Shown: positions 12,247 to 25,085 of the stretch, one piece after another | Layout: each line of letters opens with the position of its first letter | How positions within the stretch are numbered: the stretch's first letter is position 1 | Virus record (IMG/VR): IMGVR_UViG_3300007790_000161 | Span: 5,809 to 69,808 of that record | Source: a virus | DNA: 64,000 bases | Strand: one strand, 5' to 3' | Program-made: the position numbers and the translations under genes | The notes under the pieces: model-generated | What the model was told of the DNA's origin: nothing | Seen by the model: the letters and a program-made list of their open reading frames with translations, nothing else | Database searches by the model: none

Positions 12247-12630
12247 ATGCGTAAGCTTCACTTCACTGACCCTGAGCTTAAGAACTTCGCCCTTCGTGGT
12301 ACGCATTCGATTCGCGGAGGTATGGAGCTTCTTCACGTGCACTCTCGTAAGGAGCGATTCGGCTCTTACGCTACTCGAATGGACAGTCTGACTCAGGCTT
12401 ACGAGCTTCCCGCTCACGTGATTCACAAGATGATTACGGGCGGGGATTCGGATAAGACGGAAATGCAGTGGATTTACTTTACGAACAAGTACGGCAAGAT
12501 TCGCCCCACCTATCTCTCTGACTCTGGTGTGATTCCCTACGTCGGCTCTGGTGGTTCGGCTCTCAACGACACGAATTTCCTTCTTGACCTCGGTGCCCTT
12601 CGTAAGTTTGGGATTGAGGTTGACTACTGA
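12247..12630 (+). CDS. hypothetical protein
   Basis: 127-aa ORF with phage codon usage. Confidence 0.7.
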   Translation: MRKLHFTDPELKNFALRGTHSIRGGMELLHVHSRKERFGSYATRMDSLTQAYELPAHVIHKMITGGDSDKTEMQWIYFTNKYGKIRPTYLSDSGVIPYVGSGGSALNDTNFLLDLGALRKFGIEVDY

Positions 12631-12702
12631 GGTAGTCATGGGCTACAGTAGAAGCGTAGCCCAAGCTTGCAACACCCCATCGTAAACCAACACTAAGGAT
12701 GA

Positions 12703-13098
12703 ATGATGAACAAGGGTCTCAAGGTCGCTGGTCTCGCTGTTGCTGGTGTGGTTGCTCTGACTGCCTGTGAGGGTGGTTCGAGTACGGTTCACTACAAGAG
12801 TGGTAAGGCTGGCACTGTTGTCGGAAAGTCTTCCAAGGGTGGTACGTACAAACTGACTACCAAGAGCGGCGGTAAGAAGAAGACGTTTGAGGTTTTCTCC
12901 TCTGTCTACTTTGACTGCGGAATGTACAGCTACTACCCCACTTGTGTCAAGTCGGCAAAGCCGGTTTCCACTCCCACCAAGAATGGCGGTGTGAATGGTA
13001 CTCCCAAGTCTAAGAAGACTTCTGGTACTAAGTCCGACTCTAACAAGAAGAGTGGCGGATTTAAGAGTGGTGGCTTCTCTTCCAGCAAGAAGCGCTAA
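12703..13098 (+). CDS. lipoprotein with Lys/Ser/Gly-rich tail
   Basis: Signal peptide with lipobox LTA-C; low-complexity C-terminus. Confidence 0.7.
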   Translation: MMNKGLKVAGLAVAGVVALTACEGGSSTVHYKSGKAGTVVGKSSKGGTYKLTTKSGGKKKTFEVFSSVYFDCGMYSYYPTCVKSAKPVSTPTKNGGVNGTPKSKKTSGTKSDSNKKSGGFKSGGFSSSKKR

Positions 13099-13155
13099 TA
13101 TCCGGCAAAAATAAAGATTATCGTAAACAGAATAAACTAATAGATAATAAATATC

Positions 13156-13193
13156 TCCCCTCTGGCTTCGGCCAGAGGGGATTTTTGTGTTTT
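13156..13193 (+). terminator. strong intrinsic terminator ending the rightward arm
   Basis: TCCCCTCTGGC-TTCG-GCCAGAGGGGA then TTTTTGTGTTTT. Confidence 0.88.
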
Positions 13194-13210
13194 AATTTCA
13201 AAAAATTCAA

Positions 13211-13290
13211 AAATTTTGTGGCAAAATTTTGAACCATCGTAAAGGGAATTCTGAAATTTTTGTGGCATTTTTTATGACCATCGTAAAGGG
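13211..13290 (+). repeat. imperfect direct repeat with A/T tracts
   Basis: AAATTTT(T)GTGGC-N8-..ACCATCGTAAAGGG at 13211-13246 and 13254-13290. Confidence 0.8.
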
Positions 13291-13708
13291 GCTTCTGCCG
13301 GAATCGGACATGTCGGGCTCGCCCCGCTTCGCGGGGCTTCGCCCTCTTTTATACCAAATTGTACCAATTTGGTAGTGTTTGCCCTGGTCTGTACTGAAAT
13401 GTACCCGAATGTCCGATTTTCCCGAATCCCCAGTCGGCACAGAAGATTTTACCTCCTGAGGGGTTGACTAATTGCCAGGGCATAGGGTACGCGCGGGAAT
13501 TCCGGGCCTGCCTGGTTTCGAGCGTCCGGCCGAGCCGTGCCGACACGCGCAGCGCACCCGAGCAGCCGGATAGTTTAACTCTAAACATTTAGGCCGGCAA
13601 ATCATTTCATTAGCTAACTAAATAGTTAGACAGCCTAAGCTGTTACATTCCGGCCGGACGATTGTACCAATCAGTGTAGCAATACAGACGTTGATACAAT
13701 CCGAGATT

Positions 13709-13752
13709 GTTGAACACTCAACAATCAGAGTCTAAGAGGTTGAGTGTTCAAC
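13709..13752. repeat. perfect 14-bp inverted repeat
   Basis: GTTGAACACTCAAC-N16-GTTGAGTGTTCAAC. Confidence 0.9.
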
Positions 13753-13838
13753 CAAAATTTGTAGCATAGATTGTAGCAATACGAAGAGCGCTACAAAGCC
13801 AGTCGGCAAGGATGGTTGAAATCTGTACTTCCACAGGC

Positions 13839-14114
13839 TGTGGATAAACCTGTGGATAACTTCGCTACTCTGTGCAATGTTACTTCACAGTATGTGAGAA
13901 AAGCTCTGTACGCCTTTCTAAGAGCCTCCCAGCACTGCCCATAGGCAACCACCCCAGGGCACCCGCGAAAGGCCGTTAGACGCGATTTTCACGCTGCGTA
14001 GTATCTGACGGACCGTTGGGAAACCCTAGAAAACCGCAGGTCAGACTATGTTTCGGCATTTATGAAGGGTTGTTGAATAACTGCGCACGGTTACTCTCTG
14101 TTGACTGTGGATAA
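13839..14114 (-). promoter_or_regulatory. three perfect DnaA boxes (TTATCCACA)
   Basis: TGTGGATAA at 13839-13847, 13851-13859 and 14106-14114. Confidence 0.7.
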
Positions 14115-14317
14115 CTATTCTTTACCAAGTTGTTACCAAAAAGGTCTTGACAACGAAGCAAAAATTTGCCTACCGGGGGCGGCCGGCCAATCAGGTAAAA
14201 TTTTGGTAACGATTCCTGAAAAGCCTTGACAACTGACCAGCGGGAAGCTATTTACGCGCAGCGTGCACGCTCCGGGTGTGATGGGAACGGCATAGGTTAC
14301 TCGCCGGTTAACTAACT

Positions 14318-14335
14318 GTGTGACGCACGTCACAC
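14318..14335. promoter_or_regulatory. perfect palindrome matching the Crp/GlxR consensus TGTGA-N6-TCACA
   Basis: GTGTGACG-CA-CGTCACAC, 11 bp upstream of TTGCAA. Confidence 0.55.
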
Positions 14336-14340
14336 GAGAA

Positions 14341-14535
14341 AGGGACTTGCAATCCGGGCCGGTTTCCTGGAGAGTCTTCCTTGTCAGAACGGAACGGCGG
14401 AACGGGAAACCGGGAAGTCGGGAAGGGAAGACAAGCGGTAACCGACTCTGATAGAGTCGGAGACGCACCGGAGGAAAACCCGAAAGGGCCAGTACAAAGG
14501 AATGCGCGGTTCCTTGAGAATTCAATAGTGGGTAC
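14341..14535 (+). promoter_or_regulatory. rRNA-operon-like tandem promoter and leader with boxA
   Basis: TTGCAA-N17-GAGAGT; extended -10 TG-A-TAGAGT (14449-14457); CCC-GAAA-GGG hairpin (14479-14488); GTTCCTTGAGAATTCAATAG (14509-14528), which matches actinobacterial rrn boxA as recalled. Confidence 0.72.
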
Positions 14536-14878
14536 AGAAACACATTACGCACCATAGAGCGCTAAAGCGTCCCTAGTCCGTGAATTCTGCGGGGAATACG
14601 CCAATACATTGTTAGCGCGAATCGGTATTCTCGGCACTTTGCCAGAATTAGCGAAAAGACACCCTCTCCCTGTCATGGCAAGACATATCGGGTGTGGCGG
14701 ATATCCGGGCGGTAGACCGGGTGTGAATATCCAATCTGAGTAGCGAAATTCAGCGGGTGTTTTGTTTATTGGTCAATGGTGTAACCGTCCCGATTATCTA
14801 GGGACTGTGGCTTTAGACGCTTACCCTTTCGAGCGTCTAGTGTCCACATGTGATTAGGGGAAGAAAGCTGAGGCGAAA
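14536..14878 (+). ncRNA. highly structured leader of about 340 nt or ncRNA
   Basis: Stems include AATTCTG/CAGAATT, GGGAATAC/GTATTCTC, ACACC/GGTGT, GGATAT/ATATCC, GTCCC/GGGAC and TAGACGCT/AGCGTCTA. Confidence 0.55.
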
Positions 14879-15184
14879 ATGACCACTGCCAAGAGCACTG
14901 CCAAGCGTCCGGCGCGCAAGGTTGCCGAGACTGCCGAGAGTGACCCTCAGAACGTCGCAGGATGGACGTTCACGGCCCCCCGGAAGGTTCGGGGGTGGAA
15001 GAGTGCCGGTACCGTCTCTCTGACGCGTCAGACGCCGGATGAGCCGTCCGGCGGGTGGCATAAGGTGTGCCGTGCCCTGTGGAACATGGGTGAGGCGGCC
15101 GAAACCGCAACGGGCGGGAATGCGTATTACGCCCGTCGCCGTGACGCGATTGTCTCGCGTCTGGAATCCTTCCTTTCCAAGTAG
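14879..15184 (+). CDS. hypothetical protein, first gene of the putative early block
   Basis: First ORF after the leader; Ala/Lys-rich N-terminus. Confidence 0.7.
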   Translation: MTTAKSTAKRPARKVAETAESDPQNVAGWTFTAPRKVRGWKSAGTVSLTRQTPDEPSGGWHKVCRALWNMGEAAETATGGNAYYARRRDAIVSRLESFLSK

Positions 15185-15281
15185 CTAAACCGTCTCTTCC
15201 GGTAATGCCGGATTGAGGCAAGGGAAACCCAACAAACCGAATTCCCCTAATCACTTGCGGACACTAGAAAGGAGAAAATCA

Positions 15282-15773
15282 GTGTTCCGACTTTCGGTGA
15301 ATGGCAAAACCTACAACCCGACTTCCGTTAAGGATTTTTGGCCGCGTGCCAATCGTTCTGACGGATACGACGGAAGTTGGGTTGAATTCCCGGATTTCTA
15401 TTACTGCGTTTGGATGACCATTGACGGCAAGACTTTTGCCGTTGACGGAAATGCTTCGCGGTATGAGCTTGCCCGGCACATTCGGAATTCCCGCAAGATT
15501 GCGGCGAGTAATCCGGATGTTCCCTTTTCCATCGGCTATCAGAAGATTTGGACAACGCGACGGGAATTGCTTTGCCCGTGGTGTGGCGTCCGGCCGGACC
15601 AATGGGAATGGGACTGTGACGGACAGTTTCCCATGTCCACATGTGGCAGCGAACAGTGTGACAAGCTGAATCGCTGTCAGGGGTGCGGACGCGACGGGGA
15701 GGCACGCATTAACCATCTGTGTGATGAGTGCTACGTCATGGAATACAAGCGACCACTACCGGGCCGGAAGTAA
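15282..15773 (+). CDS. hypothetical protein with C-terminal Zn fingers
   Basis: RBS AAAGGAG with GTG at 15282; CPWC, CxxxxC, CQGC and CDEC. Confidence 0.7.
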   Translation: MFRLSVNGKTYNPTSVKDFWPRANRSDGYDGSWVEFPDFYYCVWMTIDGKTFAVDGNASRYELARHIRNSRKIAASNPDVPFSIGYQKIWTTRRELLCPWCGVRPDQWEWDCDGQFPMSTCGSEQCDKLNRCQGCGRDGEARINHLCDECYVMEYKRPLPGRK

Positions 15774-15870
15774 TTCAGCTAGTAGTTTGGGGGTCTGCCT
15801 TTCCCGAAAGGGAAAGGCATTCCACCCCAATCCGCTAGACGAAAAGCGGTGTCCTGAAAGGGAAAAGGAA

Positions 15871-16545
15871 ATGTCCGAAACCATCGGCACTCAGGCTGAG
15901 GCGGAAGAGATTTTCAGTTTCGTTCTGCGCTATAACGCGTGGAAGCAAATGGAGCGGAACAACGAATTCGCGGCGTACGAATTCAGCCATCACGCAGAAA
16001 TGCTGCGGCTGCACCGACAGTTCCCGGATGACCCTTGGTACCGGCACCCCGGCCCGCTCCGTTGCCACTACGCCTACGGGCCGAACATCGAAAAGCCGGA
16101 ACTTCCGGAAGGTTGGAAGTTCCTTGCGGCCGGTGTCTCCCGTCGCGCTTACCTCTCCCCTTCCGGGGTGGTTTACAAGGTGCAGCGCAACCCTGAGAGC
16201 GACTATCAGGGGAACAAGGGAGAGCACGAAACGGCGGAGCGTGTGCGCAAGTCCGGGGATGTCCGGGGCGCGTACATTCCCCGGACGTCGCTTTACAAGG
16301 TTCCGGGGTCATGGGTAATCGCCCTGGAATACATGAACGGCATTCGCGGTGACGACCATTGGGAAATGTACTGCTATCCCGGTGAACGGTGCCGTTGCGC
16401 ATTCCCCGGATACGTCCGGTGCGCGTCCGCTATCAAGCGGGAATTGCAGAACAAGTTGGGCCTTTCCGACTTGCACAACGAAAACGTTTTGTGGGTTCCC
16501 TCACAACGCGTTTGGGCGGTCGTTGACTTGGGATTGGCCAACTAA
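15871..16545 (+). CDS. protein-kinase-like protein (paralog 2)
   Basis: AAGVSRRAY, VVYK, NKGE, IALEYMNG, DLHNEN and VVDLG. Confidence 0.82.
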   Translation: MSETIGTQAEAEEIFSFVLRYNAWKQMERNNEFAAYEFSHHAEMLRLHRQFPDDPWYRHPGPLRCHYAYGPNIEKPELPEGWKFLAAGVSRRAYLSPSGVVYKVQRNPESDYQGNKGEHETAERVRKSGDVRGAYIPRTSLYKVPGSWVIALEYMNGIRGDDHWEMYCYPGERCRCAFPGYVRCASAIKRELQNKLGLSDLHNENVLWVPSQRVWAVVDLGLAN

Positions 16546-16615
16546 GCCATTCTGTGGCTTTAGGGGTGCTCACTCGAAAGGGTGAGCACACCCTATGGAC
16601 TCACAGAAAGGATGA

Positions 16616-17080
16616 ATGACAGTGAGTTTCAATCCGGCTGAGAAAGTCAGTCAGTGGAATTACGCCGTAGAAATCGAGTATTCGGAAGGGACTAGCACTC
16701 TCATCCGTTCGGCTTTCTTCGGTACGGCAAAGGATGCGGCTGCATTCCTTGACGGTTTCGACTACACAAACGGTGACGTTTTCGGGTGGTCGGGTGATTC
16801 CGCAACGATGGAAGCAATCCAGAGTTACCGAAAGGGTGACGACGTGCGAGCGGTTCCGGAATTCATCACGGAATACGACGTTGACGACGAAACCGATTCG
16901 GGTAAGGCAATCGGAGCGGACGAATTCAATCGTCTGTTTCTCGCCTTCCACCGAAAGGACGGTTTCACGGTGCGCCGTTGGGCCGTTCCGAACGGACACG
17001 TTTACGCCGTTATGTATAACGGTGAGCTGTCCGGCGCGGCATGGCACGTTCCGACGGATGCGGATTCCGTCATCATGTAA
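16616..17080 (+). CDS. hypothetical protein
   Basis: RBS GAAAGGA; acidic. Confidence 0.7.
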   Translation: MTVSFNPAEKVSQWNYAVEIEYSEGTSTLIRSAFFGTAKDAAAFLDGFDYTNGDVFGWSGDSATMEAIQSYRKGDDVRAVPEFITEYDVDDETDSGKAIGADEFNRLFLAFHRKDGFTVRRWAVPNGHVYAVMYNGELSGAAWHVPTDADSVIM

Positions 17081-17168
17081 GAGCCTTTCAGTCTCTATAG
17101 GGAAAGGGGGTGGTTACCTTGCGACGTAGGCGCAAGCGCAAATTACCCAACGGCTGAAAGGAAAAGGA

Positions 17169-17405
17169 ATGCGGGAATATCTGGTCTGGAATGAATCCGG
17201 CGACTTGCTTTCGGGACCACACCGGAAGAGAGAAACGGCGGAAAGGATGGAAGCTAAGTTCATGGCGGAATGTGCGGCGGAATGCGGTACAGACGGTATG
17301 GACGAAAACGGAAACGGTAATTTCGCGTGCGGAGTGCTTTCCCCGCACGGAATCCACATTCAAGTGACGGAAGGTGGATACGACATTACCGGGCACGATT
17401 ACTGA
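17169..17405 (+). CDS. hypothetical protein
   Basis: RBS AAGGA. Confidence 0.65.
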   Translation: MREYLVWNESGDLLSGPHRKRETAERMEAKFMAECAAECGTDGMDENGNGNFACGVLSPHGIHIQVTEGGYDITGHDY

Positions 17406-17486
17406 CGCTAGGGCGTCCGGGCATTCGCAACTGTCGTTGTGAGTGTCCGAATGTCCTAAGGGTTAGGGCATTGAAAGGGGTATGAA

Positions 17487-17660
17487 ATGCGTACGGTCAA
17501 GGTTGACGGTAAGTCGGGCATCATCGCTGCGCGCGGTATGGGTCCGAACGATGGCAACGTGTTCGTTCTGTTCGATGGGGACGGCACGGCGGAAGAGTCG
17601 GCCCGTTGGGTGTCGGTGGAGTCGGTCACGGTGACCGGAACCCTTCCCGCATCGTTCTAG
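17487..17660 (+). CDS. hypothetical protein (57 aa, SH3-like beta pattern; not in the ORF track)
   Basis: RBS AAAGGGG; MRTVKVDGKSGIIAARG...VFVLFDG...WVSVESV. Confidence 0.6.
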   Translation: MRTVKVDGKSGIIAARGMGPNDGNVFVLFDGDGTAEESARWVSVESVTVTGTLPASF

Positions 17661-17763
17661 GCCCGTGGGGGCCGTTCTGAGAGGCTTTGGAACGCCCCCC
17701 GGCCCGTTTCCCCAACCAAGCTGAGTACGGCCGTTAGAGCGGCGTACAGGAGGTTTTTGTAGC

Positions 17764-18027
17764 ATGGAACGTAGCACGGTGTCCCTGTCCACTCCGCGCG
17801 GGGAACTGATTCGGTTTGAGATTCCGGGATTCGGTTTGGTGCACATGCGCCCCGGAAATCTCGCGGAATGCATGACGCGCACTGAGGAAATGACGATTCC
17901 GGAAATTCGGCAGTCGCTCATTTCGGAAGGGTGGAGCTTGGGAATCCTTGACGGTCCGTCCGATGCAATTTCCCGAATCTCTTGGGTTGCGGTTTGGGGA
18001 GAGTGCCACGGACACGGCATTTTCTGA
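17764..18027 (+). CDS. hypothetical protein
   Basis: RBS AGGAGG. Confidence 0.65.
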   Translation: MERSTVSLSTPRGELIRFEIPGFGLVHMRPGNLAECMTRTEEMTIPEIRQSLISEGWSLGILDGPSDAISRISWVAVWGECHGHGIF

Positions 18028-18122
18028 TATGAGCGTTTAGCCGCTCTAGTCATTCTCAGGATTCCTGAGTTTGGCTAAATCGGCTGAAAGCAAAGTCGAG
18101 AATTCCACGAAAGGGAATTACC

Positions 18123-18680
18123 GTGATTGGCAATGCACGTGACGCGGAAATGATTCGTGATTACGTCGTTAACTCGCGGATTGTCCGGGAAGAGCGTTCG
18201 AATTACGAATGTGGCTATTTCATCGGCCCCGTTCGCAATCGACCGGCCCGACCGGAAGGATGGAAGCGCGTAGGCGGCGGGTGTTTTCGTTCCGCGTGGC
18301 TTTCCCCGGACGGTGTGATTTACAAGGTGGAACACGCTTACGGGAATGGCGGGCAGTCGAATTCGGAGGAATACGAAAACGTCGTCCGAATCCTCACGGG
18401 GAACAAGTCGCACCCTTACGTGTCCATTCCGCGAGTCACCTATTACGCCCTTGACGGGCGGGGGGTCATCGCAATGGAGTACGTGAACGGGGAAGAGCCG
18501 GGATACTGCCACGGGTGCGGAAGTGGTTACCGGCACTGCACCACAAAGGTTCGGGGGAAGTGCATTAACCACATTTACGCGGAAATCGAAAAGGAATTCG
18601 GCCTTTTCGATATGCACTCCGGAAACGTGATGTTCATTCCCGAACAAGAGCGTTTCGTCGTTATCGACATTGGCGCTTAG
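18123..18680 (+). CDS. protein-kinase-like protein (paralog 3)
   Basis: GGGCFRSAW, VIYK, NSEE, IAMEYVNG, DMHSGN and VIDIG. Confidence 0.82.
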   Translation: MIGNARDAEMIRDYVVNSRIVREERSNYECGYFIGPVRNRPARPEGWKRVGGGCFRSAWLSPDGVIYKVEHAYGNGGQSNSEEYENVVRILTGNKSHPYVSIPRVTYYALDGRGVIAMEYVNGEEPGYCHGCGSGYRHCTTKVRGKCINHIYAEIEKEFGLFDMHSGNVMFIPEQERFVVIDIGA

Positions 18681-18759
18681 ACGTCTAGTGATTGGCAGGC
18701 TTGTTTAGCTGCCTTTCGCTAAATGCCTAAGGGTTAGGCAGGAAAAGGGGAAATGCAGA

Positions 18760-19098
18760 ATGACGGTAAAGCTTGGCATGTACGGCAAGGGTCGCACTTC
18801 CTGGATTGACTTCCGGGATGTGATTCTGTCGGGTGAGGCTTTCACCATTTCTTCCGGCACGTTCTACGGTGGTCCGGTCAAGCCCGGTTATGCGGCCCAT
18901 TTGGAAATGGGCCGGATGCCGAATAACGAGCGTGAGATTTTCCGCGCGCTCGCGCCGGAAATCGATTACGTGATTTACAGCTATGCGACTCCGATTGCAT
19001 GGCACGAAAGGGGTGCGGACGTTTGGCACCTTACGGAAGCGGGTCACAGCAATTCCACAAAGCGGCACAAGGGTAAGCTTTGTGGTCTGCCGTTCTAA
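18760..19098 (+). CDS. hypothetical protein (YSYxTPIAW motif)
   Basis: RBS AAGGGG; recurrent phage motif. Confidence 0.7.
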   Translation: MTVKLGMYGKGRTSWIDFRDVILSGEAFTISSGTFYGGPVKPGYAAHLEMGRMPNNEREIFRALAPEIDYVIYSYATPIAWHERGADVWHLTEAGHSNSTKRHKGKLCGLPF

Positions 19099-19183
19099 AC
19101 GGTTCGGGTTGCGGTATTCCGGGCGGGTGTTCGGAATACCGTTTTCCCAATCCGCTTAGGGTGAGTGGATTAGAAAGGAAATC

Positions 19184-19393
19184 ATGGTTATTCTTGCGTT
19201 GCTCGGAATGTTCGCTATTTCGCTCGTGTTCGGAGCGATTGCGGCTGTCCCTATCGCATGGCTTGTCATGCTGATTATGGGAGCGCTGCATAGCGTATTC
19301 CCGTCCGTGGAAAACCTTTCCTTCCTTTCGGCATGGGTGGCAACTTGGCTTGTTGCCATTATCGCCGGGGTGTTTGTGCAGAACCGAAGCTAA
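19184..19393 (+). CDS. membrane protein
   Basis: RBS AAAGGA; almost entirely hydrophobic. Confidence 0.7.
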   Translation: MVILALLGMFAISLVFGAIAAVPIAWLVMLIMGALHSVFPSVENLSFLSAWVATWLVAIIAGVFVQNRS

Positions 19394-19477
19394 CGGTTCG
19401 GGTGATTGGCAATGGAGAGTTTGCCAATTGCTCAATCCGCTAGATTCAAAAAGCGGTGACCGAAAGGGTAAAAGCTA

Positions 19478-19858
19478 ATGGGACACATTTTCGCTTTCAT
19501 GACCGGTACCGCCGTTTCGCTTGACGGTGGGGAGGACGAAAGGGAAGAGCGTCACGGCTGGATTGACAAGGAATGGAGCATGACCGTTCTGCACGATTCC
19601 CGGAACGACGTTTCTCCGCTGGTTTCCGTTGACGAATCGGACACGGAAACCCTCACGGACGAAATCCGGGATGTGTTGGGAGACGGTTCCCTGTGGGATG
19701 ACAACGGGGACGGCTCTTTCTATGCACAGGGTGAGTCCGTGGAAGATGGTTACGCATGGACGTACGCCGTGCATTTCAAGCGCAAGGGTGGCGCGTCTGA
19801 GGGGTTCGCGGAGACGGATTGGCACCCTGAGACGGACGGCGGTATTTCTCTCGTCTGA
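19478..19858 (+). CDS. acidic hypothetical protein
   Basis: RBS AAAGGG. Confidence 0.7.
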   Translation: MGHIFAFMTGTAVSLDGGEDEREERHGWIDKEWSMTVLHDSRNDVSPLVSVDESDTETLTDEIRDVLGDGSLWDDNGDGSFYAQGESVEDGYAWTYAVHFKRKGGASEGFAETDWHPETDGGISLV

Positions 19859-19916
19859 GAGGCATACAGCCGCTAGGCGGTAGGTTGGTACATAGCGTGC
19901 AACAAAAAGGTGCTGT

Positions 19917-20393
19917 GTGCCTTCCTACGGCACCGGGAAACCGTTCCCGGTGTCTGGCTTAGGGAAGGGGTTACAAGTGGCTCTAACGGGCGTACACGCG
20001 TGCATGGACGGTATCCGGCACGGCAACGGGGAGTGTGGTTTCAGTCCGTTGTCTGTCCGGGGTGCGACGTGCTGTCAGTGCAAGGGGTATCCGGCCACTA
20101 CCGCACAGGGTGACTGCACTGTGTGCGGGGGCGGGTATTACGAATCGATGGACGATTTCCGGGCCGATATTCCCCCGGTAGATTCCGGGCGGGTAGTGAG
20201 TGAATTCCCCATTACCATTACCGCCTATAGAGGAAACAAGGAAGTAAAGGTAAGTGGAGTAAGGGAAGATTCGGTAAAGGCCAATACGGATAGGGAAGGG
20301 AATGTGTTCCTTTCCTTTGAATTCAAGGATGACCCGGACCGAATCGGGTACATTCCTTGCGTGGATTGGTACGCAACCGAATGTGAATGGTAG
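19917..20393 (+). CDS. hypothetical protein; the true start may be GTG 20196
   Basis: The C-terminal 65 aa look like a discrete protein. The 5' part competes with ORF 19910-20113. Confidence 0.45.
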   Translation: MPSYGTGKPFPVSGLGKGLQVALTGVHACMDGIRHGNGECGFSPLSVRGATCCQCKGYPATTAQGDCTVCGGGYYESMDDFRADIPPVDSGRVVSEFPITITAYRGNKEVKVSGVREDSVKANTDREGNVFLSFEFKDDPDRIGYIPCVDWYATECEW

Positions 20394-20622
20394 AAAAGCA
20401 CTACACACTAGGAAGAAAGGACAGCCTATCGATTGTCGATAGATTTAGAGGGTAATAGTGCGGCAATTCAAAAGGCCGCATTTAATAGGTAATTCGGCTA
20501 AAAAGCCTGCAAATGCAAGGGAAAAGGCATGAAAACGGCTGCATTTCTCGCAATTCTCGGTGTTTCTCTGTGCATCCTGTATATCAGGGGCGCATATACG
20601 GTAATTACAGGAGGGTAGATAT

Positions 20623-20904
20623 ATGGGTTGTGCTATTCAGTGGGTATCTAGGAAGGGAAATGGGGGTGTTATCTATGGTGGGTATGTAGTGAATGACGGT
20701 ACACACATTGTCTTTGTGGATACCCGGTCAAAGGGGAATACCCGCCCGCTCTATCTCTACCTAGGAAAGGGGGATGACCTAAAGGGTATGGCTGTATATA
20801 GGGAATCGGCATTCATCATGCCGGATGTTCTCTTGAATGCAGCTCAATACAATACCCTTGTTGCCTCTATGGATGACTATAAGACTAGGTCATTCAAAGG
20901 GTAA
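20623..20904 (+). CDS. hypothetical protein
   Basis: RBS AGGAGG. Confidence 0.6.
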   Translation: MGCAIQWVSRKGNGGVIYGGYVVNDGTHIVFVDTRSKGNTRPLYLYLGKGDDLKGMAVYRESAFIMPDVLLNAAQYNTLVASMDDYKTRSFKG

Positions 20905-21112
20905 TCAGTCGGAAGAAAACCCGCGAGAAATCCGGGCGGAAAAGATTCAGCATTATGGAGAGGTTGCATCCTTTGCGGGTAGGGGTGTTCTTTTCGTCGG
21001 CACAATGGGAATTGCTGCGGTATCGGCAATCGCAATCGCTCTAGCTGGATTGTTCTTTGTCCTGGGAATTGTGTTCCAAGCTTTCTCGGTATTCTAGAGA
21101 GGAATTCTTTTA

Positions 21113-21310: not shown

Positions 21311-21344
21311 AACACAAAAATGCCCCTCCCCGAAGGGAGAGGCA
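21311..21344 (-). terminator. intrinsic terminator ending the leftward arm
   Basis: Minus strand reads TGCC-TCTCCC-TTCG-GGGAGG-GGCA then TTTTTGTGTTT. Confidence 0.85.
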
Positions 21345-24526: not shown

Positions 24527-24582
24527 ATGCAAAAAGCCGCTGACAAATAGCAGCGGCTAGTCTCCTTTTCTATTTGTTTGAG

Positions 24583-24655
24583 AGCCTAGTGTGGGAATCG
24601 AACCCACGACCTTTTCCGTACCAAGGAAATGTTCTACCACTGTCACTAACTAGGC
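24583..24655 (-). tRNA. tRNA-Thr(GGU)
   Basis: Cloverleaf GCCTAGT/ACTAGGC, anticodon loop TT-GGT-AC, T-loop TTCGATT; CCA not encoded. Confidence 0.9.
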
Positions 24656-24756
24656 GCAGCCCCGAGAGGCGCAATGCAGGCAGCCGTTAAACTAGTATAA
24701 GCCGTCCGCGAGCTTGGCGGTTCCGAAAAAGGAGAAGGAAAACGAAACCGCCTAAG

Positions 24757-24828
24757 AGCCAGATAACGGAATCGAACCGTTGACTTGTCAGTACGAAAGA
24801 CATGTGTTTCCACTACAACTAATCTGGC
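24757..24828 (-). tRNA. tRNA-Thr(CGU)
   Basis: Cloverleaf GCCAGAT/ATCTGGC, loop TT-CGT-AC; one U-U mismatch in the anticodon stem. Confidence 0.85.
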
Positions 24829-24938
24829 ATATAGTCTGCCTCCCCTGCAACTAGGTACTACAGACAAGCCCCGAAGGACATTTCCTCGGGGGCAGAGGTA
24901 CGGGTCGGTCGCATTCTCGCCGCACGTACCCCCAATTG

Positions 24939-25012
24939 AGCCGGTTATCGGATTCGAACCGATGACCTATCGCTTACAAGGCGATTGCTCTGGCCAACTG
25001 AGCTAAACCGGC
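24939..25012 (-). tRNA. tRNA-Thr(UGU)
   Basis: Canonical cloverleaf GCCGGTT/AACCGGC, loop CT-TGT-AA. Confidence 0.93.
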
Positions 25013-25013
25013 A

Positions 25014-25085
25014 GTGCACCCCCAAGGACTTGAACCTCAGATTACCACTAAATCAGAGTGGCGTACTACGTTGTACTAGAGTGCA
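25014..25085 (-). tRNA. atypical tRNA-Ile(GAU)
   Basis: Acceptor TGCACTC/GGGTGCA, loop CT-GAT-TT. The D-loop lacks GG and the T-stem is irregular. Confidence 0.6.

What the first reader, a model, noticed from the sequence alone, without database searches (positions are those of the whole stretch)
14341..14535. The phage mimics the Streptomyces rRNA-operon promoter, leader and boxA to drive its early operon
Seen: purine-rich tandem promoter spacers, then CTGATAGAGTCGGA, CCGGAGGAAAACCCGAAAGGGCCAGTACAAAGGAATGCGCGGTTCCTTGAGAATTCAATAG. From memory (not a search), Streptomyces rrn leaders read ...TCTGATAGAGTCGGAAAC...CCGGAGGAAAGCCCGAGAGGGTGAGTACAAAGGAAGCGTCCGTTCCTTGAGAACTCAACAG. That is colinear through the last promoter, a GNRA hairpin and boxA. 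No 16S gene follows; phage genes do. Established: rrn boxA recruits NusB/NusE(S10) with NusA, NusG and SuhB to give fast, termination-resistant transcription, and lambda nut sites use the same machinery with N protein. Inference: a captured host rrn leader gives phage-protein-independent antitermination and rRNA-level promoter strength for first-entering genes. It may also titrate Nus factors away from host rrn operons.
Basis: partly seen in the sequence, partly recalled or inferred. Interest (0 to 1): 0.88.

Follow-up and report, generated by a model that had tools for sequence, protein, structure and literature searches.

The report
Phage copy of host rRNA-operon leader
A lytic Streptomyces phage carries, ahead of a block of small unknown genes near its genome end, a roughly 140-base copy of its host's ribosomal-RNA operon promoter and anti-termination leader, and similar copies sit behind the first promoter of many unrelated phages of Streptomyces and Mycobacterium, which suggests a common, so far undescribed way of borrowing the cell's rRNA transcription machinery.

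Summary
Window 14390-14528 is colinear with the last promoter and leader of Streptomyces rrn operons. It hits exactly six places per complete Streptomyces genome (E 1e-10 to 1e-12), all 160-210 nt upstream of 16S, and 150 of 201 Streptomyces genomes (best E 6e-18). No 16S follows. Instead there is a 350-nt untranslated leader, folded and supported by covariation, then about 14 small orphan genes running to the genome end of a BK1-cluster (Gilson-like) phage.

The 8-nt boxA proper (GGTTCCTT, 14508-14515) is degenerate in sister phages. The part kept everywhere is the next element, TTGAGAAYTNAAYAG. It is invariant in actinobacterial rrn leaders and corresponds to the mycobacterial NusA-binding region.

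The same leader lies behind the terminal inward-reading promoter of at least 94 Streptomyces phage records from three virus lineages. Its core lies behind the right-end promoter of cluster A mycobacteriophages.

Function is inferred, not shown: a host-type promoter plus Nus-factor loading that gives processive, Rho-resistant transcription. The claims about "first-entering genes" and Nus titration are untested. The nearest precedent is T7's boxA behind its early promoters. I found no paper describing this in actinophages.

The parts
14347..14375 (+). Upstream promoter-like site Pa: TTGCAA, 17-nt spacer, GAGAGT
   Evidence: Sequence. Position and spacing are conserved in 8 Loccivirinae, with -10 variants GATAGT, TATTGT and TAATGT. 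In Sham and TunaTartare this is the only promoter ahead of the conserved core.
14383..14434 (+). Purine-rich spacer (GGAAC/GGGAA repeats) between the two promoters, like the spacers between tandem host rrn promoters
   Evidence: The best host alignments run from 14390. Conserved in most Loccivirinae.
14428..14467 (+). Promoter Pb: AAGACA, 18-nt spacer, extended -10 TGaTAGAGT (14449-14457) and discriminator/start region. The block 14447-14467 is 20/21 identical to the host rrn last promoter. Predicted start about 14463-14465.
   Evidence: The start site is inferred from spacing only.
14468..14488 (+). CCGGAGGAAAA plus a CCC-GAAA-GGG tetraloop hairpin (boxB-like position, upstream of boxA as in rrn leaders)
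   Evidence: Colinear with host CCCGGAGGAAAGCCCGAGAGGG. The stem covaries among phages and hosts: CCTGAGAAGG, CCCGGAGACGGG, CCTCGCAAGGGG and GCGGGGAAACCCGC. Fold.
14491..14502 (+). AGTACAAAGGAA linear motif shared with host leaders and most phage copies
14508..14515 (+). boxA proper, GGTTCCTT (host CGTTCCTT; 7/8 to my recollection of the Aquifex boxA, GGCUCCUU)
   Evidence: The 8-nt definition comes from PMC3177189; the Aquifex string itself is recalled, not read here. Alignment. Degenerate in Annadreamyvirus, Faustvirus and some Likavirus copies.
14514..14549 (+). Conserved core TTGAGAATTCAATAG plus the phage-specific continuation to CACATTACG. The first 15 nt are the element invariant in actinobacterial rrn leaders.
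   Evidence: 30 of the first 36 columns are invariant in 9 Loccivirinae. The core is found in 77 of 301 Actinomycetota genomes against about 9 hits for the reversed control, and lies 110-250 nt upstream of 16S. There is one copy only in the 64-kb window.
14548..14848 (+). Structured untranslated leader RNA. A multi-helix domain is closed by 14548-14553/14778-14783, followed by hairpins 14787-14805 and 14806-14848 (an invariant 45-nt block).
   Evidence: RNAalifold on 9 phages gives 76 pairs, 95% of cells paired and 22 pairs with compensatory changes, against 3-6 in partner-slid controls. No Rfam match.
14836..14862 (+). 5' arm of a 27-nt long-range inverted repeat that encloses the first ORF
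   Evidence: I1, 93% complementary. Conserved in 8 of 9 relatives, with three compensatory pairs.
14879..15184 (+). First ORF of the operon (101 aa, no family match)
15242..15268 (+). 3' arm of the long-range inverted repeat
15213..21100 (+). Rest of the rightward block of small orphan genes (Gilson genes 256-268), running to the physical genome end and terminal repeat
   Evidence: Gilson annotation. No Pfam hits; two paralogues in phrog_28435. No strong + strand intrinsic terminator inside.
21321..21344 (.). GC-rich hairpin with a T-run at the junction with the converging leftward genes; likely end of the unit

Best explanation
Window 14390-14530 is a host-derived rrn promoter-leader module. 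It contains a copy of the last promoter of the Streptomyces rRNA operon (extended -10 TGaTAGAGT and its start region), the leader hairpin, the 8-nt boxA and the downstream conserved element TTGAGAAYTCAAYAG. These steps are shown by sequence. Host RNA polymerase with the principal sigma factor is inferred to start at about 14463-14465. The nascent leader is then inferred to load host elongation factors: NusB/NusE(S10) on boxA, NusA on the downstream element, and NusG and partners. This would make the polymerase fast and resistant to Rho. It would then traverse about 415 nt of untranslated, highly folded leader RNA (14463-14878) and the roughly 6.4-kb block of small orphan genes without any phage protein. 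An upstream promoter (14347-14375) feeds the same leader. The module is probably an early or host-takeover control region: it has host-type promoters, orphan genes and a terminal location, and the same layout is seen in other phages. Timing is not shown.
For: Homology to rrn leaders:
- Six hits per complete genome, all at rrn.
- 150 of 201 Streptomyces genomes match, best E 6e-18 over about 140 nt.
- 16S lies 160-210 nt downstream in hosts.

Selection in phages:
- The core 14514-14549 is nearly invariant in nine phages whose intergenic DNA is otherwise 70-75% identical.
- Sham and TunaTartare lost the second promoter and the hairpin but kept the core.
- The hairpin stem covaries.

Recurrence in the same context:
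- 94 phage records, all Streptomyces phages, match the host leader: Loccivirinae, Arquatrovirinae, Beephvirinae and Ibantik.
- In the ~50-kb phages the match is 0.6-1.1 kb from the right end, behind TTGACA-N17-TAGAGT and ahead of the first inward gene.
- Cluster A mycobacteriophages have TTGACA-N18-TAGAGT followed 27 nt later by the core, at the equivalent position.

The core is the phylum-wide rrn leader element. boxC of the M. tuberculosis rrn leader is a specific NusA binding site (PMC2724277).

A long untranslated structured leader follows, which is the kind of RNA that rrn antitermination protects.

Precedent: T7 has a boxA antitermination element behind its host-RNAP early promoters (PMC3709561).
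Against: - There are no expression data. The only runs holding related sequence are contigs that show neither starts nor strand.
- boxA proper is degenerate in several sister phages, so NusB/NusE dependence cannot be general.
- No strong intrinsic terminator lies inside the operon for an antiterminator to overcome. Rho-dependent sites cannot be predicted here.
- Patelgo, a relative, keeps the upstream blocks and a TAGAGTCGG promoter but has no rrn core, so the leader is dispensable in at least one lineage.
- The leader's own fold is not more stable than shuffles.
- The E. coli-consensus promoter scan calls nothing here. This is expected for TAGAGT-type promoters.
Confidence: 0.6

Rival explanations
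1. Promoter and RNA-handling element only. The phage copied a strong, growth-coupled host promoter. The transcribed leader serves as a 5' stabiliser, processing site or folding aid for the downstream structured RNA, with no effect on termination.
For: The promoter core is the best-preserved host-like stretch (20/21). The leader is followed by a covarying structured RNA and by a conserved long-range stem enclosing ORF1 that resembles rRNA processing stalks. No internal intrinsic terminators were found.
Against: In Sham and TunaTartare the rrn-like promoter is deleted yet the core is kept. In BD phages and mycobacteriophages the promoter context differs while the core is the same. So selection acts on the transcribed element that, in hosts, is the antitermination region.
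Confidence: 0.2
2. Decoy. Abundant early leader RNA soaks up Nus factors or another rrn-leader-binding protein, which shuts down host rRNA synthesis.
For: The copy includes several host leader motifs beyond what boxA function is known to need (AGTACAAAGGAA, the hairpin). Tandem promoters suggest high output.
Against: Nothing supports it directly. There is one copy per genome. Many phage copies have a degenerate boxA, which is a poor design for titrating NusB/NusE.
Confidence: 0.07
3. Growth-state sensor. By copying the rrn -10/discriminator/start region, the phage ties its first transcription to the same inputs that control rRNA synthesis (initiating NTP, ppGpp, CarD/RbpA). It therefore fires only in actively growing hyphae. 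The leader is along for the ride.
For: Identity extends through the discriminator and start region (14447-14467). Extended -10 TGnTAGAGT is shared by host, BK1 and BD copies.
Against: It does not explain conservation of the transcribed core where the promoter is lost or different. It is compatible with, rather than alternative to, the main explanation.
Confidence: 0.1
4. Functionless relic of a past recombination with a host rrn operon.
For: Phage genomes are mosaic. One relative lacks the core.
Against: The core is nearly invariant across phages 70-75% identical elsewhere. The hairpin covaries. The placement is the same in three or more virus lineages and in mycobacteriophages.
Confidence: 0.03

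Closest known systems
Streptomyces rrn operon: last tandem promoter and nut-like leader (hairpin, boxA, downstream conserved element) upstream of 16S
   Same: Colinear sequence over about 140 nt: the purine-rich spacer, TGaTAGAGT and start region (20/21), the CCCGGAGGAAA-hairpin, AGTACAAAGGAA, the 8-nt boxA (7/8) and TTGAGAAYTCAAYAG (13/15 to the host). The order is hairpin then boxA, as in rrn and unlike lambda nut.
   Different: About 17-20 host nucleotides between the start region and the hairpin are absent. Two C-to-T changes in the core were seen in none of 120 host loci. Similarity ends after the core. No rRNA follows, only a different structured RNA and protein genes.
Phage T7 boxA behind the early promoters A0-A3
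   Same: A host-RNAP early promoter cluster followed by an rrn-type antitermination signal that needs no phage protein (PMC3709561, citing Savalia 2010).
   Different: As far as I know (own knowledge), T7 carries a short boxA motif, not a long homologue of the host promoter and leader. It has a different host phylum and different Nus-site sequences. The T7 element has genetic evidence; this one has none.
Lambda nutL/nutR (boxA-boxB with N protein)
   Same: An RNA signal in an early leader that assembles NusA/B/E/G on RNA polymerase (PMC2724277, PMC3177189).
   Different: Lambda needs phage N bound to boxB, and the order is boxA then boxB. Here the order and sequence are those of rrn, and no N-like requirement is implied. 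No candidate N gene was sought.
Mycobacterium tuberculosis rrn nut region, where boxC binds the NusA KH domains
   Same: The element conserved in all phage copies aligns with the mycobacterial leader TGTTGT-TTGAGAACTCAATAG-TGTGTTTGG seen in sampled genomes. boxC there is a specific NusA site, with an AUA trinucleotide critical (PMC2724277 intro). The window phage has AAUAG like mycobacteria, where Streptomyces has AACAG.
   Different: That the crystallised RNA was exactly GAACUCAAUAG is my recollection; the primary papers were not readable. Binding of Streptomyces NusA to the phage RNA is untested.
phiEco32-like coliphage 'rRNA-operon mimics' noted earlier in this scan (e1-137988, e1-1920517)
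   Same: Tandem host promoters, rrn-type boxA, then a conserved, heavily folded non-coding RNA before the early genes. This is the same architecture in another phylum.
   Different: Those carry short exact boxA copies behind each promoter and a 0.8-0.9-kb RNA. Here there is one long homologue of the host leader and a ~300-nt folded leader. These are AI notes, not publications.

Membership tests
Actinobacterial rrn promoter-leader (homology to the host element) | Significant, colinear sequence similarity to leaders that lie directly upstream of 16S genes, and to nothing else in the host genome | tested here: met
   Six hits per complete genome, all rrn. 150 of 201 genomes match, best E 6.4e-18 over about 140 nt. 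16S lies 160-210 nt downstream in host loci.
Actinobacterial rrn promoter-leader (homology to the host element) | Followed by a 16S rRNA gene (a true rrn operon) | tested here: not met
   No rRNA match in Rfam for 12500-16000. ORFs follow. So this is a copy of the control region, not an rrn operon.
rrn-type antitermination signal (boxB-boxA-boxC) | An 8-nt boxA matching the NusB/NusE-recognised sequence | tested here: met
   GGTTCCTT at 14508-14515, against host CGTTCCTT. The 8-nt, base-specific definition is from PMC3177189. The comparison strings GGCUCCUU (Aquifex; 7/8 match) and UGCUCUUU (E. coli rrn) are my recollection. In sister phages this feature is NOT met (ACACATT and others).
rrn-type antitermination signal (boxB-boxA-boxC) | A hairpin upstream of boxA and a conserved element downstream, in rrn order, within about 100 nt of the start site | tested here: met
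   Hairpin at 14479-14488, boxA at 14508-14515, downstream element at 14516-14528, predicted start about 14464. The start site is inferred.
rrn-type antitermination signal (boxB-boxA-boxC) | Binds NusB/NusE and NusA and renders RNA polymerase resistant to Rho-dependent termination | not testable with these tools
   Needs binding assays, reporters or factor depletion. No informative RNA data.
Sigma-70-family (HrdB-type) promoter | -35/-10 hexamers at 16-18 nt spacing, or an extended -10 | tested here: inconclusive
   AAGACA-N18-TAGAGT with TG at -15/-14 is identical to the host rrn promoter core. The E. coli-consensus scan calls nothing (8/12 is below its threshold). No start-site data.
Lambda-type nut site | boxA followed by a boxB hairpin bound by a phage N protein | tested here: not met
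   The order is hairpin then boxA. The hairpin is the host rrn one. Not filed as a nut site.
Described RNA family (Rfam) for the 14548-14848 leader | A match to a curated covariance model | tested here: not met
   No match at E<=10 in 14300-14900.

The most novel reading that the evidence does not exclude
Copying the host rRNA-operon control region is a general strategy of actinobacteriophages. Unrelated Streptomyces phage lineages (BK1, BD/R4-like, FlowerPower-like, Ibantik) and cluster A mycobacteriophages (behind their right-end leftward promoter) place the phylum-wide rrn leader element TTGAGAAYTNAAYAG right after their first promoter. In this way they enrol NusA-centred host antitermination machinery without any phage protein. 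In the Gilson-like phages this rrn mimicry goes further: the leader feeds a new ~300-nt folded RNA and a processing-stalk-like helix that encloses the first gene.
Probability: 0.4. Interest if true: 0.78.

Novelty: new variant of a known kind. Interest (0 to 1): 0.64.

Why it matters
Processive antitermination in phages is textbook for E. coli (lambda N/Q, T7 boxA, HK022 put). I found nothing comparable described for actinobacteriophages, although thousands are sequenced and some are used therapeutically and as genetic tools.

If the element works as inferred, it explains how these phages get long early transcripts out of a host whose Rho is active on untranslated RNA. It also gives a compact, portable 'promoter plus anti-termination leader' part for Streptomyces and Mycobacterium expression. 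And it points to the downstream TTGAGAAC...AG element, rather than boxA, as the functionally critical piece of the actinobacterial rrn leader. That question about host rRNA transcription becomes testable with natural phage variants.

Together with T7 and the phiEco32-like phages, it suggests that rRNA-operon mimicry is a convergent solution across phyla.

Tried and rejected
- Rfam at a permissive threshold over 12500-16000 gave nothing in the region.
- The E. coli-consensus promoter/terminator scan found no promoter call and no terminator in 13500-15300.
- Searches for a second copy of the core or of the -10 block in the 64-kb window found only chance-level near-matches.
- A coding reading of the overlapping ORFs (14381-14557 +, 14133-14555 -) is rejected. 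Relatives differ by indels of 8, 10 and about 78 nt that break any frame, and conservation follows RNA and promoter motifs.
- Expression evidence: RNA-kind run search and read laying found only wastewater 'RNA-Seq cDNA' contigs of relatives (probably DNA). They show no starts or strand and are not usable.
- Literature: ten full-text searches found no paper on rrn-leader or boxA elements in Streptomyces phages or mycobacteriophages. The phiJoe and Endor papers do not mention it. The primary M. tuberculosis NusA-RNA papers could not be read.
- The 18-mer scan of IMG/VR (66 contigs) contains chance hits. About 13 are low-GC contigs, and only 16 loci match a Streptomyces-leader profile at E<1e-3, so I do not use 66 as a count.
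- Integration or recombination with host rrn is rejected. These phages are lytic with no integrase (PMC10793280), and the identity is too low and too short.
- The phylum sample included three unpublished genomes (G320, G249, G288).

Full report
What the window is.
The window is part of a 72-kb IMG/VR contig of a Streptomyces phage. The flagged intergenic region is 90-93% identical over the 1.3-kb query, and 94-97% over the 231-nt element itself, to Kenrey, Phredrick, Emma1919 and Gilson (Stanwilliamsviridae, Loccivirinae). Phredrick is a BK1-cluster phage: lytic, about 129 kb, with a 765-bp direct terminal repeat, 35 tRNAs and a tmRNA (PMC10793280).

The flagged bases lie in a 1.3-kb ORF-free gap, 13600-14878. 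In Gilson the equivalent gap is 120291-122053 of 128338. It is followed by genes 255-268, all small, rightward and hypothetical, up to the right end. The next genes after the repeat (3-21) converge on them.

Checking the observation.
Nearly all were Streptomyces, Kitasatospora, Streptacidiphilus and a few other actinobacteria, and many sat at contig ends. Wherever DNA continues, the 16S 5' end lies 160-210 nt downstream.

Because those loci were chosen by a motif, I repeated the test without one.
- BLAST of window 14330-14560 against three complete Streptomyces genomes gives exactly six hits in each of two of them, E 1e-10 to 1.7e-12, 84-87% over 61 nt. In the third, whose hairpin differs, it gives paired promoter and boxA hits at six or seven sites.
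- In 201 Streptomyces genomes drawn evenly, 150 match at E<=1e-3 per genome. The best alignments (E 6.4e-18 to 1e-15) cover window 14390-14528, about 140-150 nt at 71-75%.

The alignment is colinear through these elements:
- the purine-rich spacer;
- TCTGATAGAGTCGGAGACGCA (20/21 identical to the host);
- CCGGAGGAAA plus a GNRA-loop hairpin;
- AGTACAAAGGAA;
- the boxA region;
- TTGAGAAYTCAAYAG.

The host has 17-20 extra bases between the start region and the hairpin. Similarity ends near 14530.

Anatomy.
- Pa: TTGCAA-N17-GAGAGT at 14347-14375.
- A purine-rich spacer.
- Pb: AAGACA-N18-TAGAGT with TG at -15/-14, at 14428-14457, with a predicted start at about 14464.
- Hairpin CCC-GAAA-GGG at 14479-14488.
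- A second weak hairpin, AAGGAA...TTCCTT, that would occlude boxA.
- boxA proper, GGTTCCTT, at 14508-14515.
- The downstream element at 14516-14528.

The crystal-structure paper defines boxA as 8 nt read base-specifically by NusB/NusE (PMC3177189). Against my recollection of the Aquifex boxA string, GGCUCCUU, the phage has a 7/8 match and the host 6/8.

What is conserved in phages.
I aligned eight Loccivirinae from three genera, whose intergenic DNA is otherwise 70-90% identical.
- The promoters keep their position while the -10 hexamers drift.
- The hairpin is replaced by a different stem in Beuffert and Faust.
- Sham and TunaTartare have lost Pb and the hairpin altogether.
- The 8-nt boxA is degenerate outside the Gilson group (ACACATT, AGACCTT, ACACTTT, ACCGATT).
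- TTGAGAAYTNAAYAG and the next 21 nt are essentially invariant: 30 of the first 36 columns in nine phages.

So the selected element is the one just downstream of boxA. In a 301-genome sample of the phylum, this 15-mer occurs in 77 genomes, against about nine hits for the reversed control. Where DNA allows the check, it lies 110-250 nt upstream of 16S. The boxA octamer in front of it varies between genera (CGTTCCTT, TGTTGTTT, CGATCCTT, GCTCTTT, CGCACCTT). The mycobacterial form reads TGTTGT-TTGAGAACTCAATAG-TGTGTTTGG.

The E. coli NusA paper states that boxC of the M. tuberculosis rrn leader is a specific NusA site bound by the KH domains, with an AUA trinucleotide critical (PMC2724277). My recollection is that the crystallised RNA is GAACUCAAUAG. 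I could not verify this.

Recurrence.
Using a host rrn leader as the query against 50,697 phage records returns 80-94 records, all of them Streptomyces phages. Besides the BK1 group they are:
- about 50-kb Arquatrovirinae (Likavirus and Camvirus: Hydra, Lannister, Zemlya, Izzy, Werner, Joe, Saftant, Endor1 and others);
- Beephvirinae (FlowerPower);
- Ibantik.

In each fetched case the match lies 0.5-1.1 kb from the right genome end on the minus strand. It sits behind TTGACA-N17-TAGAGT and ahead of the first inward-reading gene. The hairpin covaries among them: CCCGAGAGGG, CCTGAGAAGG, CCCGGAGACGGG and CCTCGCAAGGGG.

An IMG/VR scan for the core plus TGG found 66 contigs. About 50 are high-GC, about 13 are low-GC and probably chance hits, and only 16 match a Streptomyces-leader profile.

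Among the high-GC contigs:
- Cluster A mycobacteriophages (121 records matched the locus) carry TTGACA-N18-TAGAGT and, 27 nt later, TTGAGAACTAAATAGTGG, again roughly 0.6-1.2 kb from the right end on the minus strand.
- PegLeg/Bongo-type mycobacteriophages carry the core between tRNA-Trp and a sequence beginning like a tmRNA.

One relative, Patelgo, keeps the upstream blocks and a TAGAGTCGG promoter but has a different leader without the core.

What the module drives.
Between the core and the first start codon (14879) lie 350 nt without a credible ORF. RNAalifold on nine phages predicts 76 pairs, with 95% of cells paired. 22 pairs show compensatory double changes, against 3-6 when the 3' partners are slid by 1-3 columns. 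The structure has these parts:
- a multi-branch domain closed by 14548-14553/14778-14783;
- a hairpin with a conserved CCGG-GCGGTAGA-CCGG centre whose outer stem is rewritten three times (GGATAT/ATATCC, ACCCG/CGGGT, AATTCCTTT/AAAGGAATT);
- an invariant 45-nt hairpin just before the ribosome-binding site.

Rfam has nothing here.

In addition, a 27-nt inverted repeat (14836-14862 and 15242-15268) encloses ORF1. It is kept in eight of nine relatives with three compensatory pairs. Formally this resembles the stalks that enclose 16S in pre-rRNA. Whether it is cut by RNase III is unknown.

The downstream ORFs have no Pfam match. Two are paralogues in an unknown-function PHROG. There is no strong + strand intrinsic terminator until the hairpin at 21321-21344.

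Mechanism.
Shown: homology to the host rrn promoter-leader, purifying selection on the transcribed core, recurrent placement behind the terminal promoter, and a long structured untranslated RNA downstream.

Inferred from established rrn and lambda biology (PMC2724277, PMC3177189, PMC4807359 abstract):
- host RNA polymerase starts at Pb and Pa;
- the nascent leader recruits Nus factors;
- the modified polymerase resists Rho and elongates quickly through the untranslated leader and the operon.

T7 is a precedent for a protein-independent boxA behind host-RNAP early promoters (PMC3709561). Earlier notes of this scan describe the same architecture in phiEco32-like coliphages.

I put 0.6 on this reading. 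The rivals are partly compatible with it:
- promoter and RNA-handling element only (0.2);
- growth-state coupling through the copied promoter (0.1);
- Nus decoy (0.07);
- relic (0.03).

Limits.
- There are no transcription data.
- 'Early' and 'first-entering' are inferences from gene type and position.
- Host-to-phage direction is inferred from the element's universality in host rrn operons.
- Whether phage lineages captured it independently or exchanged it is unresolved.
- The literature search covers open-access text only.

Verdict.
The 'boxA' label should be split, and the emphasis moved to the downstream element. This is a new variant of a known kind (phage use of host rrn-type antitermination signals). 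It is of above-average interest because of its breadth across actinophages and the accompanying new structured leader.

Noticed in passing
window 13600-13870 and 14100-14116: An origin-like cluster. It has three TTATCCACAG-type DnaA-box matches (13838-13847, 13850-13859, 14105-14114), repeated GATTGTAGCAATAC iterons (13661-13782) and a perfect 14-nt inverted repeat GTTGAACACTCAAC (13709-13752). All are conserved across Loccivirinae.
   Followed up: partly
window 13872-13915 and 13976-14004: A 41-nt block invariant in eight phages (GCAATGTTACTTCACAGTATGTGAG...), followed by a good promoter-like site TTAGAC-N17-TAGTAT. Further conserved TTGACA boxes lie at 14148 and 14227. The gap therefore holds an array of four or five rightward promoters, not just the rrn-like pair.
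   Followed up: partly
window 14548-14848: A ~300-nt untranslated leader with a multi-helix fold supported by 22 compensatory pairs in nine phages. No Rfam family matches. It looks like a new structured phage RNA.
   Followed up: partly
window 14836-14862 and 15242-15268: A 27-nt long-range inverted repeat enclosing the first ORF. It is conserved with compensatory changes in 8 of 9 relatives and resembles the processing stalk around 16S in pre-rRNA.
   Followed up: partly
L174:13100-13250 (IMG/VR copy of Mycobacterium phage CloudWang3, 52873 bp): Cluster A mycobacteriophages carry TTGACA-N18-TAGAGT followed 27 nt later by TTGAGAACTAAATAGTGG, roughly 0.6-1.2 kb from the right genome end on the minus strand. 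This is an rrn-leader core behind what is probably their early leftward promoter.
   Followed up: partly
L194:5500-5620 (Mycobacterium phage Bongo/PegLeg type): The same core lies between tRNA-Trp and a sequence that starts like a tmRNA (…GGGGCTG), inside a non-coding RNA gene cluster.
   Followed up: no
L248:2150-2300 (Streptomyces phage Patelgo): A relative that shares the upstream blocks and a GCTAGAGTCGG promoter but has an unrelated leader without the rrn core. The leader is a swappable module.
   Followed up: partly
L125:400-470 and 890-945 (Streptomyces phage Hydra): Besides the rrn-like promoter, Hydra has two promoter-like sites of another type (TTGAC[A/C], 17-18 nt, TACCTT). It also has a second partial copy of GAACTCAACAG at 414-424.
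   Followed up: no
window 15721-16545 and 18123-18680: Two ORFs of the operon are paralogues: both hit phrog_28435 (unknown function) at E 1e-25.
   Followed up: no
Forrest and Jada records (hits H8, H9): In these close relatives an HNH endonuclease gene is inserted in the same intergenic gap, upstream of the rrn-like module.
   Followed up: no
window 24582-25084, minus strand: A cluster of three tRNA-Thr and one tRNA-Ile genes in the converging leftward unit.
   Followed up: no
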